Virus record (IMG/VR): IMGVR_UViG_2579778884_000002
DNA length: 21,910 nt
Source of the DNA: a virus
Lineage: Duplodnaviria > Heunggongvirae > Uroviricota > Caudoviricetes
Strand: one strand, 5' to 3'
Shown here: positions 14,187 to 21,910 of the stretch, one piece after another
How the letters are laid out: each line of letters begins with the position of its first letter
Numbering within the stretch: position 1 is the stretch's first letter
Program-made: the position numbers and the translations under genes
Notes under the pieces: model-generated
What the model saw: only the letters and a program-made list of their open reading frames with translations
Databases searched by the model: none
What the model was told of the DNA's origin: nothing

Positions 14187-14585
14187 ATGACGAAAGATGA
14201 ACTGATTGCCCGTCTCCGCTCGCTGGGTGAACAACTGAACCGTGATGTCAGCCTGACGGGGACGAAAGAAGAACTGGCGCTCCGTGTGGCAGAGCTGGAA
14301 GAGGAGCTTGATGACACGGATGAAACTGCCGGTCAGGACACCCCTCTCAGCCGGGAAAATGTGCTGACCGGACATGAAAATGAGGTGGGATCAGCGCAGC
14401 CGGATACCGTGATTCTGGATACGTCTGAACTGGTCACGGTCGTGGCACTGGTGACGCTGCATACTGATGCACTTCACGCCACGCGGGATGAACCTGTGGC
14501 ATTTGTGCTTCCGGGAACGGCGTTCCGTGTCTCTGCCGGTGTGGCAGCCGAAATGACAGAACGTGGCCTGGCCAGAATGCAATAA
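14187..14585 (+). CDS. FI: DNA-packaging protein FI
   Basis: 132 aa from the ATG at 14187 (GGAGG upstream), matching recalled lambda gpFI. Confidence 0.95.
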   Translation: MTKDELIARLRSLGEQLNRDVSLTGTKEELALRVAELEEELDDTDETAGQDTPLSRENVLTGHENEVGSAQPDTVILDTSELVTVVALVTLHTDALHATRDEPVAFVLPGTAFRVSAGVAAEMTERGLARMQ

Positions 14586-14596
14586 CGGGAGGCGCT

Positions 14597-14950
14597 GTGG
14601 CTGATTTCGATAACCTGTTCGATGCTGCCATTGTCCGCGCCGATGAAACGATACGCGGGTACATGGGAACGTCAGCCACCATGACATCCGGTGAGCAGTC
14701 CGGCGCAGTAATACGTGGTGTTTTTGATGACCCTGAAAATATCAGCTATGCCGGACAGGGCGTGCGCGTTGAAGGCTCCAGCCCGTCCCTGTTTGTCCGG
14801 ACTGATGATGTGCGGCAGCTGCGGCGCGGCGACACGCTGACCATCGGTGAGGAAAACTTCTGGATAGACCGGATTTCGACGGATGATGGCGGAAGCTGTC
14901 ATCTCTGGCTTGGGCGTGGCGTGCCGCCTGCCGTTAACCGTCGTCGCTGA
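14597..14950 (+). CDS. FII: Head-tail joining protein FII
   Basis: 117 aa, GTG start, matching recalled lambda gpFII (MADFDNLFDAAI...). Confidence 0.95.
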   Translation: MADFDNLFDAAIVRADETIRGYMGTSATMTSGEQSGAVIRGVFDDPENISYAGQGVRVEGSSPSLFVRTDDVRQLRRGDTLTIGEENFWIDRISTDDGGSCHLWLGRGVPPAVNRRR

Positions 14951-20088: not shown

Positions 20089-20414
20089 AGACCTTCCGCT
20101 GGAAAGTGAAACCCGGTATGGATGTGGCTTCGGTCCCTTCTGTAAGAAAGGTGCGCTTTGGTGATGGCTATTCTCAGCGAGCGCCTGCCGGGCTGAATGC
20201 CAACCTGAAAACGTACAGCGTGACGCTTTCTGTCCCCCGTGAGGAGGCCACGGTACTGGAGTCGTTTCTGGAAGAGCACGGGGGCTGGAAATCCTTTCTG
20301 TGGACGCCGCCTTATGAGTGGCAGCAGATAAAGGTGACCTGCGCAAAATGGTCGTCGCGGGTCAGTATGCTGCGTGTTGAGTTCAGCGCAGAGTTTGAAC
20401 AGGTGGTGAACTGA
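20085..20414 (+). CDS. M: Minor tail protein M
   Basis: 109 aa, matching recalled lambda gpM. Confidence 0.95.
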   Translation: MKTFRWKVKPGMDVASVPSVRKVRFGDGYSQRAPAGLNANLKTYSVTLSVPREEATVLESFLEEHGGWKSFLWTPPYEWQQIKVTCAKWSSRVSMLRVEFSAEFEQVVN

Positions 20415-21112
20415 TGCAGGATATCCGGCAGGAAACACTGAATGAATGCACCCGTGCGGAGCAGTCGGCCAGCGTGGTGCTCTGGGAAATCGACCTGACA
20501 GAGGTCGGTGGAGAACGTTATTTTTTCTGTAATGAGCAGAACGAAAAAGGTGAGCCGGTCACCTGGCAGGGGCGACAGTATCAGCCGTATCCCATTCAGG
20601 GGAGCGGTTTTGAACTGAATGGCAAAGGCACCAGTACGCGCCCCACGCTGACGGTTTCTAACCTGTACGGTATGGTCACCGGGATGGCGGAAGATCTGCA
20701 GAGTCTGGTCGGCGGAACGGTGGTCCGGCGTAAGGTTTACGCCCGTTTTCTGGATGCGGTGAACTTCGTCAACGGAAACAGTTATGCCGATCCGGAGCAG
20801 GAGGTGATCAGCCGCTGGCGCATTGAGCAGTGCAGCGAACTGAGCGCGGTGAGTGCCTCCTTTGTACTGTCCACGCCGACGGAAACGGATGGCGCTGTTT
20901 TTCCGGGACGTATCATGCTGGCCAACACCTGCACCTGGACCTATCGCGGTGACGAGTGCGGTTATAGCGGTCCGGCTGTCGCGGATGAATATGACCAGCC
21001 AACGTCCGATATCACGAAGGATAAATGCAGCAAATGCCTGAGCGGTTGTAAGTTCCGCAATAACGTCGGCAACTTTGGCGGCTTCCTTTCCATTAACAAA
21101 CTTTCGCAGTAA
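20414..21112 (+). CDS. L: Minor tail protein L
   Basis: 232 aa, matching recalled lambda gpL, with the C-terminal Cys cluster (CTWTYRGDECGY...CSKCLSGC). Confidence 0.95.
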   Translation: MQDIRQETLNECTRAEQSASVVLWEIDLTEVGGERYFFCNEQNEKGEPVTWQGRQYQPYPIQGSGFELNGKGTSTRPTLTVSNLYGMVTGMAEDLQSLVGGTVVRRKVYARFLDAVNFVNGNSYADPEQEVISRWRIEQCSELSAVSASFVLSTPTETDGAVFPGRIMLANTCTWTYRGDECGYSGPAVADEYDQPTSDITKDKCSKCLSGCKFRNNVGNFGGFLSINKLSQ

Positions 21113-21116
21113 TCCC

Positions 21117-21860
21117 ATGACACAGACAGAATCAGCGATTCTGGCGCACGCCCGGCGATGTGCGCCAGCGGAGTCGTGTGGCTTCGTGGTGAGAACGCCG
21201 AAGGGGGAAAGATATTTTCCCTGCGTGAATATCTCCGGTGAGCCGGAGGCGTATTTCCGGATGTCGCCGGAGGACTGGCTGCGGGCAGAGATGCAGGGTG
21301 AGATTGTGGCGCTGGTCCACAGCCACCCCGGTGGTCTGCCCTGGCTGAGTGAGGCTGACAGGCGGCTGCAGGTGCAGAGCGATTTGCCGTGGTGGCTGGT
21401 CTGCCGGGGTGAGATTCATAAATTCCGCTGTGTGCCGCATCTTACCGGGCGGTGCTTTGAGCACGGGGTGACGGACTGTTACACGCTGTTCCGGGATGCT
21501 TATCATCTGGCGGGGATTGAGATGCCGGATTTTCATCGCGGGGATGACTGGTGGCGTCACGGTCAGAATCTCTATCTGGATAATCTGGAGGCCACAGGGC
21601 TGTATCAGGTGCCGTTGTCATCAGCACAACCGGGCGATGTGCTGCTGTGCTGTTTTGGTTCATCGGTGCCGAATCATGCCGCCATTTACTGTGGTGATGG
21701 CGAGCTGCTGCACCATATTCCTGAACAACTGAGCAAACGAGAGAGGTATACCGACAAATGGCAGCGACGCACACACTCCCTCTGGCGTCACCGGGCATGG
21801 CGCGCATCTGCCTTTACGGGGATTTACAACGATTTGGCCGCCGCCTCAGCCTGTATGTGA
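21117..21860 (+). CDS. K: Tail tip assembly protein K (MPN/JAMM plus NlpC/P60-like domains)
   Basis: 247-aa open frame from the ATG at 21117. JAMM motif HSHPGGLPWLSEAD and NlpC/P60-like DCYTL plus downstream His residues. The 199-aa lambda K I recall corresponds to the internal Met at 21261. Confidence 0.85.
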   Translation: MTQTESAILAHARRCAPAESCGFVVRTPKGERYFPCVNISGEPEAYFRMSPEDWLRAEMQGEIVALVHSHPGGLPWLSEADRRLQVQSDLPWWLVCRGEIHKFRCVPHLTGRCFEHGVTDCYTLFRDAYHLAGIEMPDFHRGDDWWRHGQNLYLDNLEATGLYQVPLSSAQPGDVLLCCFGSSVPNHAAIYCGDGELLHHIPEQLSKRERYTDKWQRRTHSLWRHRAWRASAFTGIYNDLAAASACM

Positions 21861-21910
21861 ACACGGCAGCGGAAGCCATCCGGGCGCTGTCGTTACAGGT
21901 GCCGGGCTTT
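21758..21910 (+). CDS. I: Tail tip assembly protein I, 5' part (continues past the window end)
   Basis: ATG at 21758 in a different frame, overlapping the 3' end of K by 103 nt. Translation MAATHTLPLASPGMARICLYGDLQRFGRRLSLYVNTAAEAIRALSLQVPGF matches the recalled lambda gpI N-terminus. Confidence 0.85.
   Translation, partial: MAATHTLPLASPGMARICLYGDLQRFGRRLSLYVNTAAEAIRALSLQVPGF

What the first reader, a model, noticed from the sequence alone, without database searches (positions are those of the whole stretch)
21117..21860. K protein reads as 247 aa with MPN/JAMM and NlpC/P60-like motifs; 48 residues precede the start I recall for lambda K
The frame is open from an ATG 5 nt after the L stop. 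The extra N-terminal 48 residues include a Glu that could complete a JAMM active site together with HSHP...S..D, and the C-terminal half has Cys/His motifs typical of NlpC/P60. My recollection of a 199-aa lambda K is uncertain, so the reference annotation may simply start at an internal Met. If the long form is real, the tail tip protein carries two predicted hydrolase domains.
Basis: partly seen in the sequence, partly recalled or inferred. Interest (0 to 1): 0.4.

Follow-up and report, generated by a model that had tools for sequence, protein, structure and literature searches.

The report
Full-length lambda-type tail assembly protein K
The 247-residue reading of tail-assembly gene K is correct and carries a complete deubiquitinase-like domain plus a cysteine-peptidase domain, but this is already known; the 199-residue "lambda K" comes from one G missing in the 1982 lambda reference sequence.

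Summary
An ATG at 21117, four bases after the L stop, opens a 247-codon frame ending at 21860. Pfam finds a complete Prok-JAB (JAMM/MPN+) domain at residues 3-105 and an NlpC/P60 domain at 114-224. The 48 extra N-terminal residues are real coding sequence. They are under purifying selection, are conserved in homologues down to 31% identity, and form the first helix and two strands of the JAB fold. Glu19 is present in 29 of 30 sequences, and Cys21, Gly22 and Asn38 in all 30.

The lambda reference (J02459/NC_001416) lacks one G after position 14266, so its upstream ATG is out of frame and stops after 76 codons. Independently sequenced lambda stocks and derivatives carry the G and encode 247 residues. 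None of 7,328 E. coli prophage copies has the reference variant.

The JAB + NlpC/P60 architecture of gpK was published by 2006. [quoted passage not shown] Verdict: real, ordinary and already known.

The parts
21117..21860 (+). Gene K, full-length CDS (247 codons plus TGA)
   Evidence: The ORF was read directly. Both Pfam domains are found. Most homologue clusters listed in the protein search are 242-249 aa and carry both domains.
21110..21112 (+). Stop codon of gene L, 4 nt upstream of the K ATG (probable translational coupling)
   Evidence: A 4-5 nt spacer between an in-frame L stop (TAA or TGA) and the K ATG is seen in about 141 of the 146 related loci examined. There is no Shine-Dalgarno match upstream of 21117 (duplex dG +0.6 kcal/mol).
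21117..21260 (+). The 48 N-terminal codons missing from the lambda reference annotation
   Evidence: pN/pS is 0.21, and variable sites by codon position are 13/7/28. P17, E19, C21, G22, N38 and F47 are conserved in homologues of 31-58% identity. The AF2 model places helix 3-15 and strands 21-27 and 30-36 here.
21123..21431 (+). JAB/MPN+ (JAMM) metalloprotease domain, residues 3-105
   Evidence: Pfam PF14464, E=4e-14. PDB 2KKS by sequence, E=7e-6. Foldseek matches PfJAMM1 5LD9/5LDA, Rpn11, CSN5 and AMSH.
21171..21173 (+). Glu19 codon (GAG), the general-base Glu of the JAMM motif
   Evidence: Glu in 29 of 30 aligned homologues. It lies within the P-x-E-x-C-G block of the Prok-JAB family.
21318..21359 (+). 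H68-S-H70-x7-S78-x-x-D81, the zinc-binding part of the JAMM motif
   Evidence: H68, H70 and D81 are invariant, and S69 and S78 are present in 29 of 30. This matches the motif EXnHS/THX7SXXD as given in PMC300881.
21456..21788 (+). NlpC/P60 (C40) papain-like cysteine peptidase domain, residues 114-224
   Evidence: Pfam PF00877, E=3e-12. Foldseek matches MepS, LytE, Acd33800 and other NlpC/P60 structures. C121 is present in 29 of 30; H187 and H199 in 30 of 30.
21245..21263 (+). GGAGG (21245-21249), the G at 21251 that is absent from the lambda reference, and the internal ATG of Met49 (21261-21263), which is the reference K start
   Evidence: Alignment with lambda. SD-like duplex dG is -9.5, ending 10-11 nt before the ATG. 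Codon 49 is Ile in 25 of 30 distant homologues and ATT in Stx phages.
21758..21860 (+). 103-nt overlap with the start of gene I (223-aa form; different frame). I is the predicted substrate of the JAB domain
   Evidence: NC_001416 annotates the same overlap. K-frame pS drops to 0.037 here, against 0.148 upstream. The I ATG is invariant in 107 unique sequences and has an SD-like site with dG -9.4.

Best explanation
This is the full-length orthologue of lambda gpK (TAPK), a 28-kDa non-structural tail-tip assembly enzyme. It is translated from the ATG at 21117, probably by coupling to termination of gene L, because there is no Shine-Dalgarno sequence.

Its N-terminal JAB/MPN+ zinc metalloprotease domain uses E19, H68, H70, S78 and D81. 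It cleaves the ubiquitin-like N-terminal domain of the downstream protein gpI away from gpI's structural C-terminal part during tail-tip assembly.

The C-terminal NlpC/P60 domain keeps an intact Cys-His-His triad and is probably also active. Its substrate is unknown.

The 199-aa lambda K of the reference records comes from a missing G after position 14266 of J02459/NC_001416, not from biology.

Shown here: the ORF, the two domains, the conservation, and the reference frameshift. Taken from the literature: the gpI cleavage. Inferred: the translational coupling and the activity of the NlpC/P60 domain.
For: - ORF and motifs are present as described.
- The 48 N-terminal codons show pN/pS of 0.21, against 0.11 for codons 49-213. 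Against Stx-phage sequences, codons 1-48 show 14-15 synonymous and 3-6.5 non-synonymous differences.
- All 29 distant homologues (31-58% identity) begin within -15 to +9 residues of M1. E19 is present in 29 of 30 sequences; C21, G22 and N38 in all 30.
- The AF2 model has pLDDT 95.6 and pTM 0.90. Residues 3-36 form integral JAB secondary structure.
- Foldseek hits both JAMM deubiquitinases and NlpC/P60 endopeptidases.
- Reference frameshift: the lambda reference reads CCGGAGGC-TATTTCC where every other sequence compared has CCGGAGGCGTATTTCC, apart from a few relatives with base substitutions at that site.
- The upstream ORF is 76 aa in J02459, NC_001416 and OR974322. It is 247 aa in lambda imm21, PV340536, LC730321 and KT232076.
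- The exact reference 30-mer has 0 hits in IMG/VR, against at least 120 for the +G variant.
- Among 7,328 matching places in 5,426 complete E. coli genomes, none is 99% or more identical to the reference 81-mer.
- Whole-genome comparisons show +G at 14266 in two independent lambdas, one of them of the PaPa stf-frameshift lineage.
- The lambda-gt10 transgene of MutaMouse carries 14266 C>CG (PMC6760142).
- Literature: TAPK was described as JAB + NlpC/P60 and predicted to process the Ub-like TAPI (PMC1779556). A Davidson-lab talk reported that gpK cleaves the Ub-like domain of gpI (PMC12908700). gpK was absent from virions by mass spectrometry, and gpI was resolved only from about residue 137 (PMC10721106).
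Against: - No protein-level evidence for the N-terminus of K was available here, neither proteomics nor ribosome profiling.
- The long start has no Shine-Dalgarno sequence, whereas Met49 has a GGAGG 10-11 nt upstream. Some internal initiation therefore cannot be excluded.
- One non-reference lambda record (OR974322, which carries Sam7) keeps the reference state at 14266. A stock-specific deletion is therefore not formally ruled out, although that record may be a reference-guided assembly.
- The gpI-cleavage result is known to me only from a conference summary, not from a full paper.
- Nothing tested here bears on the substrate of the NlpC/P60 domain.
Confidence: 0.9

Rival explanations
1. Two in-frame products are made. 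One is the 247-aa protein from ATG 21117. The other is a 199-aa NlpC/P60-only protein from Met49, driven by the GGAGG at 21245-21249. This would be analogous to lambda C/Nu3 or S107/S105.
For: An SD-like site with dG -9.5 kcal/mol ends 10-11 nt upstream of Met49. Only about 8% of window positions score -8 or lower. ATG at codon 49 is kept in 141 of 146 close relatives. Iyer et al. note phage TAPK versions with only the NlpC/P60 domain.
Against: Codon 49 is Ile in 25 of 30 distant homologues and ATT in Stx phages, so the start is not conserved. The GGAGG is explained by the conserved P43-E44 codons. The 10-11 nt spacing is longer than optimal. The short product would carry residues 49-105 as a half JAB domain without its first helix and two strands, so it would be unlikely to fold.
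Confidence: 0.08
2. The short 199-aa form is the true product and the upstream 144 nt are non-coding. The JAB-like N-terminus would then be a chance or relic open frame.
For: The reference annotation and several derivative annotations use it: lambda imm21 and Gifsy-1. There is an SD-like site before Met49.
Against: Purifying selection and a third-position bias are seen in codons 1-48. Catalytic and structural residues are conserved at the amino-acid level at 31-58% identity. The JAB profile matches in full only with the long form. The AF2 fold is confident. The reference frame is broken by a single-base difference that no prophage copy shares.
Confidence: 0.02
3. The missing G in the lambda reference is a real mutation of the sequenced stock rather than a sequencing error. 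That stock would make K from Met49, or by frameshifting, and still assemble tails.
For: OR974322, a lambda record with the Sam7 allele, also lacks the G, although it does call another indel at 46312. Lab lambda is known to carry another tail-gene frameshift, in stf.
Against: PV340536 (PaPa lineage, stf still split), LC730321, KT232076, DE3, the imm21 and imm434 hybrids and lambda-gt10 all carry the G. The paired 138 delG and 14266 +G differences, which together leave the genome length unchanged, recur in independent sequences. That is the pattern expected of reference errors. K is an essential tail gene, and the JAB Glu lies upstream of the shift.
Confidence: 0.07

Closest known systems
Bacteriophage lambda gpK (TAPK, tail tip assembly protein K; 247-aa form as in PV340536 and phage 21 OL657228)
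   Same: 235 of 247 residues are identical. The gene order M-L-K-I-J is the same, with the same 4-5 nt L-K spacer and the same 103-nt K/I overlap. Both domains and all catalytic residues are shared.
   Different: There are twelve substitutions, four of them in the last seven residues, which lie in the K/I overlap. The window has one A fewer in the L-K spacer. Nothing functional is apparent.
Archaeal and bacterial stand-alone JAMM/MPN+ proteases (PfJAMM1 5LD9/5LDA, HvJAMM1 desampylase, AfJAMM, PDB 2KKS)
   Same: The fold is the same (Foldseek TM about 0.63-0.66 normalised to the target, rmsd 2.8-3.0 over about 111-113 columns). The E...HSHx7SxxD zinc site is shared. These enzymes cleave after the C-terminal Gly of a ubiquitin-like beta-grasp protein.
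   Different: Here the domain is fused to an NlpC/P60 domain. The substrate is a linear Ub-like-to-structural-domain fusion (gpI) rather than an isopeptide conjugate. Sequence identity is only about 20-24%. The NCBIfam desampylase model scores far below its cutoff (28.6 against 130 bits).
NlpC/P60 (C40) peptidoglycan endopeptidases such as E. coli MepS/Spr, B. subtilis LytE and C. difficile Acd33800
   Same: Papain-like fold and Cys-His-His triad.
   Different: There is no signal peptide or cell-wall-binding domain, and the protein is cytoplasmic and non-virion. A peptidoglycan substrate is therefore doubtful. Iyer et al. suggest it may also process the Ub-like protein.
Eukaryotic Rpn11 / CSN5 / AMSH deubiquitinases
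   Same: MPN+ fold and JAMM catalytic motif.
   Different: These have larger, insert-bearing MPN domains that act within multi-subunit complexes on isopeptide bonds.

Membership tests
JAMM/MPN+ (Prok-JAB, PF14464) metalloproteases | Profile match above the curated threshold over the whole domain | tested here: met
   52.9 bits against a 25-bit cutoff, covering profile positions 3-113 of 114, for the 247-aa form. The 199-aa form scores 23.8 bits, below the cutoff.
JAMM/MPN+ (Prok-JAB, PF14464) metalloproteases | Catalytic motif E-Xn-H-S/T-H-X7-S-X-X-D | tested here: met
   E19, H68-S69-H70, then seven residues, then S78-E-A-D81. The His and Asp residues are conserved in 30 of 30 sequences, and Glu and Ser in 29 of 30. 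The motif definition is from PMC300881.
JAMM/MPN+ (Prok-JAB, PF14464) metalloproteases | MPN fold | tested here: met
   The AF2 model has pLDDT 95.6. Foldseek to PfJAMM1 5LD9 gives target-normalised TM 0.63 and rmsd 2.9.
JAMM/MPN+ (Prok-JAB, PF14464) metalloproteases | Zinc binding and peptidase activity | not testable with these tools
   Known only from the literature: a conference summary reports that gpK cleaves the Ub-like domain of gpI (PMC12908700).
NlpC/P60 (C40, PF00877) cysteine peptidases | Profile match above the curated threshold | tested here: met
   46.7 bits against a 23-bit cutoff, covering profile positions 4-105 of 105.
NlpC/P60 (C40, PF00877) cysteine peptidases | Cys-His-(His/polar) catalytic triad | tested here: met
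   C121 is present in 29 of 30 sequences; H187 and H199 in 30 of 30.
NlpC/P60 (C40, PF00877) cysteine peptidases | Peptidoglycan (gamma-D-Glu-mDAP or similar) endopeptidase activity | not testable with these tools
The lack of an export signal and the absence from virions argue against a cell-wall substrate.
Lambda gpK / TAPK tail assembly proteins | Two-domain JAB + NlpC/P60 architecture | tested here: met
   The architecture is as described in PMC1779556.
Lambda gpK / TAPK tail assembly proteins | Position between the gpL homologue and the Ub-like gpI homologue in a tail gene cluster | tested here: met
   H, M and L lie upstream, and I starts at 21758.
Lambda gpK / TAPK tail assembly proteins | High sequence identity to lambda K | tested here: met
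   235 of 247 residues are identical to resequenced lambda K.

The most novel reading that the evidence does not exclude
Besides the full-length enzyme, lambdoid phages with ATG at codon 49 might make a second, NlpC/P60-only product from the internal GGAGG-ATG. This would give K a nested-gene arrangement like lambda C/Nu3, with the short form acting on a different substrate or regulating the long form.
Probability: 0.07. Interest if true: 0.35.

Novelty: already known. Interest (0 to 1): 0.15.

Why it matters
There is little new biology here. The two-domain architecture was published by 2006 and is built into Pfam and PGAP annotation. [quoted passage not shown]

The practical point is curatorial. 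The most widely used lambda records (J02459, NC_001416) still carry a one-base omission that truncates K to 199 aa and removes the catalytic Glu and a third of the JAB domain. That truncated protein has been analysed in at least one review, which saw only a peptidase at residues 52-182 of 199 (PMC7291167). It has also been copied into newer annotations whose own sequence has the open frame. Anyone modelling, cloning or mutating lambda K should use the 247-aa sequence.

Tried and rejected
- The search for related loci with the 30-sequence alignment failed because it had no conserved stretch to search with. A 9-sequence alignment worked but returned only relatives of 94-100% identity. Divergent DNA therefore came from Stx-phage and Gifsy-1 records instead.
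- The Anantharaman & Aravind 2003 paper (PMC151301) and the Casjens & Hendrix 2015 review (PMC4424060) are not held. The 2003 origin of the architecture is therefore cited only through the 2006 paper.
- Literature searches for an explicit published erratum on position 14266 or on the K start found none. They found only the MutaMouse variant table. My recollection that a commercial supplier's lambda sequence notes list "138 delete G, 14266 insert G" is from memory and untested.
- A search of the supplements of the 2025 lambda mutation-rate preprint was rejected for term syntax and not repeated.
- No model coordinates were available to the script environment, so active-site distances could not be measured.
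- I considered a programmed frameshift in lambda K and rejected it. The frame is simply continuous in every sequence except the reference-derived ones.
- I considered a virion-associated peptidoglycan hydrolase role for the NlpC/P60 domain and think it unlikely, because gpK was not detected in virions.

Full report
**The observation**

The window has an ATG at 21117-21119. The stop codon of the preceding gene (TAA, 21110-21112) lies four bases upstream. That gene is the lambda gpL homologue, 232 aa, at 20414-21112. The frame stays open to the TGA at 21858-21860, giving 247 codons. Codon 49 is an ATG (21261-21263), so 48 residues precede it.

The lambda records J02459 and NC_001416 do annotate K as 199 aa, at 14276..14875.

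The motifs are as described:
- E19, then H68-S69-H70, seven residues, and S78-x-x-D81. This is the JAMM motif EXnHS/THX7SXXD (definition from PMC300881).
- C121, H187 and H199 in the C-terminal half.

Pfam finds a complete Prok-JAB domain (PF14464, E=4e-14, residues 3-105, profile positions 3-113 of 114). It also finds an NlpC/P60 domain (PF00877, E=3e-12, residues 114-224). The 199-aa form drops below the JAB gathering score and matches only the second half of the profile.

**Are the 48 extra residues really coding?**

Four lines of evidence say yes.

1. *Selection among close relatives.* Among 79 unique K sequences from related phages and prophages, pN/pS is 0.21 for codons 1-48 and 0.11 for codons 49-213. 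Variable sites in codons 1-48 fall 13/7/28 on codon positions 1/2/3. Against Stx-phage sequences about 83-87% identical in DNA, codons 1-48 carry 14-15 synonymous but only 3-6.5 non-synonymous differences.

2. *Distant homologues.* An exhaustive HMMER search of 1.84 billion representatives found 1,710 proteins at E<=1e-10. Full-length relatives of 35-50% identity align from query residue 4-10 onward. In an alignment of 30 sequences (31-58% identity to the window protein):
   - all 29 homologues begin within -15 to +9 residues of M1;
   - P17 is present in 28 of 30, E19 in 29 of 30, C21, G22 and N38 in 30 of 30, and F47 in 29 of 30;
   - mean identity over residues 5-48 (36%) is close to that over residues 49-105 (39%);
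   - residue 49 is Ile in 25 of 30, so the internal start is not conserved.

3. *Structure.* An AlphaFold2 model built on that alignment is very confident (mean pLDDT 95.6, pTM 0.90). It places helix 3-15 and strands 21-27 and 30-36 inside the first domain. Foldseek against the PDB returns two classes of match. One is JAMM/MPN+ deubiquitinases: PfJAMM1 5LD9/5LDA (target-normalised TM 0.63, rmsd 2.9), Rpn11, CSN5 and AMSH. The other is NlpC/P60 endopeptidases: MepS, LytE and Acd33800. By sequence, the closest solved chain is the JAB protein 2KKS, aligned over residues 7-109.

4. *Start codon and spacer.* M1 is ATG in all 146 related loci examined. A 4-5 nt spacer after an in-frame L stop is seen in about 141 of them.

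**Why lambda K is annotated as 199 aa**

Aligning the region shows otherwise. The reference reads CCGGAGGC-TATTTCC. The window, phage 21, two Stx phages and lambda imm21 read CCGGAGGCGTATTTCC. Gifsy-1 has the same length with a substitution at that site.

Because of this one-base difference (aligned with window 21251, after reference position 14266), the upstream ATG of the reference (14133) is out of frame with K. It terminates after 76 codons. The first ATG left in the K frame is Met49. It happens to have a GGAGG 10-11 nt upstream.

The deletion is confined to reference-derived records.
- The exact 30-mer has 0 hits in IMG/VR, against at least 120 for the +G version.
- Only four of 122 phage records match the reference 81-mer exactly: J02459, NC_001416, OR474059 and OR974322.
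- None of 7,328 matching places in 5,426 complete E. coli genomes does.

Independently sequenced lambdas all carry the G. These are lambda imm21, imm434 and h434 imm21, DE3, KT232076, LC730321 and PV340536. The four translated here (lambda imm21, PV340536, LC730321 and KT232076) encode a 247-aa K.

Whole-genome comparison shows that LC730321 and PV340536 share eight differences from NC_001416. These include the pair 138 delG and 14266 +G, which together leave the genome length unchanged. PV340536 still has the split stf of the PaPa laboratory lineage. The lambda-gt10 transgene of MutaMouse shows the same two indels (PMC6760142 Table 5).

The most economical reading is an error in the 1982 reference sequence. 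A stock-specific mutation is a weak alternative. OR974322 carries the Sam7 allele and is therefore laboratory lambda DNA. It keeps the reference state, but it may be a reference-guided assembly.

The error has propagated:
- lambda imm21 (OM418625) has the open frame but annotates K as 199 aa;
- Gifsy-1 copies the 199-aa start;
- Perceval, the closest relative of the window in this region, uses a 224-aa start;
- a 2020 review analysed "199 residues" and saw only the peptidase at residues 52-182 (PMC7291167).

Other records already have 247 aa: phage 21, the Stx phages, PV340536, and PGAP prophage annotations named "C40 family peptidase" or "phage tail protein".

**What it does**

The architecture is not new. 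Iyer, Burroughs and Aravind (2006, PMC1779556, citing Anantharaman & Aravind 2003) described TAPK as JAB + NlpC/P60, encoded next to TAPI (gpI). The N-terminus of gpI is a ThiS/MoaD-like ubiquitin fold ending in a conserved Gly. They predicted that the JAB domain releases that domain. Lambda K was also listed among JAMM-motif proteins in 2004 (PMC300881).

[quoted passage not shown] Cleavage occurs only after gpI has engaged other tail-tip proteins, which enforces the order of assembly (PMC12908700).

Two further results are consistent with this. gpI in the virion is resolved only from about residue 137. gpK was not detected in virions by mass spectrometry (PMC10721106), and its location is called unknown in the Ur-lambda structure paper. 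K is thus best described as a non-structural assembly enzyme, not a tail-tip component.

The NlpC/P60 domain keeps its triad in essentially all homologues and is presumably active, but nothing here identifies its substrate. The protein is cytoplasmic and absent from virions, so a peptidoglycan target is doubtful. A second proteolytic role in tail-tip maturation, as Iyer et al. suggested, is the more likely inference.

**Translation start**

The long start has no Shine-Dalgarno complementarity (dG +0.6). It lies 4 nt after the L stop, which is the usual signature of termination-reinitiation coupling (inference). Met49 has a good SD-like site (dG -9.5), but at a long spacing.

The GGAGG is accounted for by the conserved Pro43-Glu44 codons. 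Met49 is Ile in Stx phages and in most distant homologues. A minor internal product cannot be excluded in phages that keep the ATG. It would, however, carry half a JAB domain and is not a conserved feature. I give that rival about 8%.

**Verdict**

It is wrong on the reason for the 199-aa annotation and on "tail tip protein".

Everything biological here is already known. The only added value is documentation that the canonical lambda record carries a frame-breaking single-base omission in K that is still misleading annotations. Novelty: already known. Interest: low (0.15).

Noticed in passing
window 21251; NC_001416 between 14266 and 14267: The lambda reference sequence lacks one G that is present in the window, in all other lambdoid relatives checked and in independently sequenced lambda stocks. 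This breaks the K frame and is the origin of the 199-aa annotation. It is probably a 1982 sequencing error that is still in RefSeq.
   Followed up: yes
window 21758-21910 (gene I, cut by the window end); L003, L210, L212: The start of gene I is annotated three ways in public records. The 223-aa form uses the ATG at window 21758. The 210-aa form uses Met14 at 21797. The 190-aa form uses the GTG at 21857, which overlaps the K stop. The first ATG is invariant and has an SD-like site, and K-frame synonymous change is suppressed across the 103-nt overlap. This favours the 223-aa form, which is also the one with an intact ubiquitin-like domain.
   Followed up: partly
L213 against L214 and L217 (whole lambda genomes): Two independent lambda sequences (LC730321, PV340536) share eight differences from NC_001416: 138 delG, 14266 +G, 20661, 22444, 25662, 31016, 34934 and 45618. 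A 2025 preprint that mapped reads to NC_001416 also mentions 8 mutations in its ancestral lab strain. These may all be reference errors or early stock differences.
   Followed up: partly
L214 (LC730321), reference position 20832: LC730321 has an extra C that would rejoin orf-401 and orf-314 into an intact side tail fibre gene. It is therefore Ur-lambda-like rather than the PaPa laboratory lineage.
   Followed up: no
L216 (OR974322): A lambda record described as coming from chicken cloacal swabs carries the laboratory Sam7 amber allele (45352 G>A) and is otherwise nearly identical to the reference. It is probably laboratory lambda DNA rather than an environmental isolate.
   Followed up: no
homologue list (for example P0013, P0014, P0026, P0092): Some database proteins fuse K to L (PF05100) or to I (PF06805). 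Most are singletons and may be frameshifted prophage genes or gene-calling artefacts. Iyer et al. did, however, describe real TAPI fusions in some prophages.
   Followed up: no
window 21186 (GTG, Val24): Phage Perceval is 98.9% identical to the window over the ~1-kb query spanning the end of L, K and the start of I. Its K is annotated from this internal GTG (224 aa). That start has a moderate SD-like site (dG -7.2) but would remove Glu19.
   Followed up: partly
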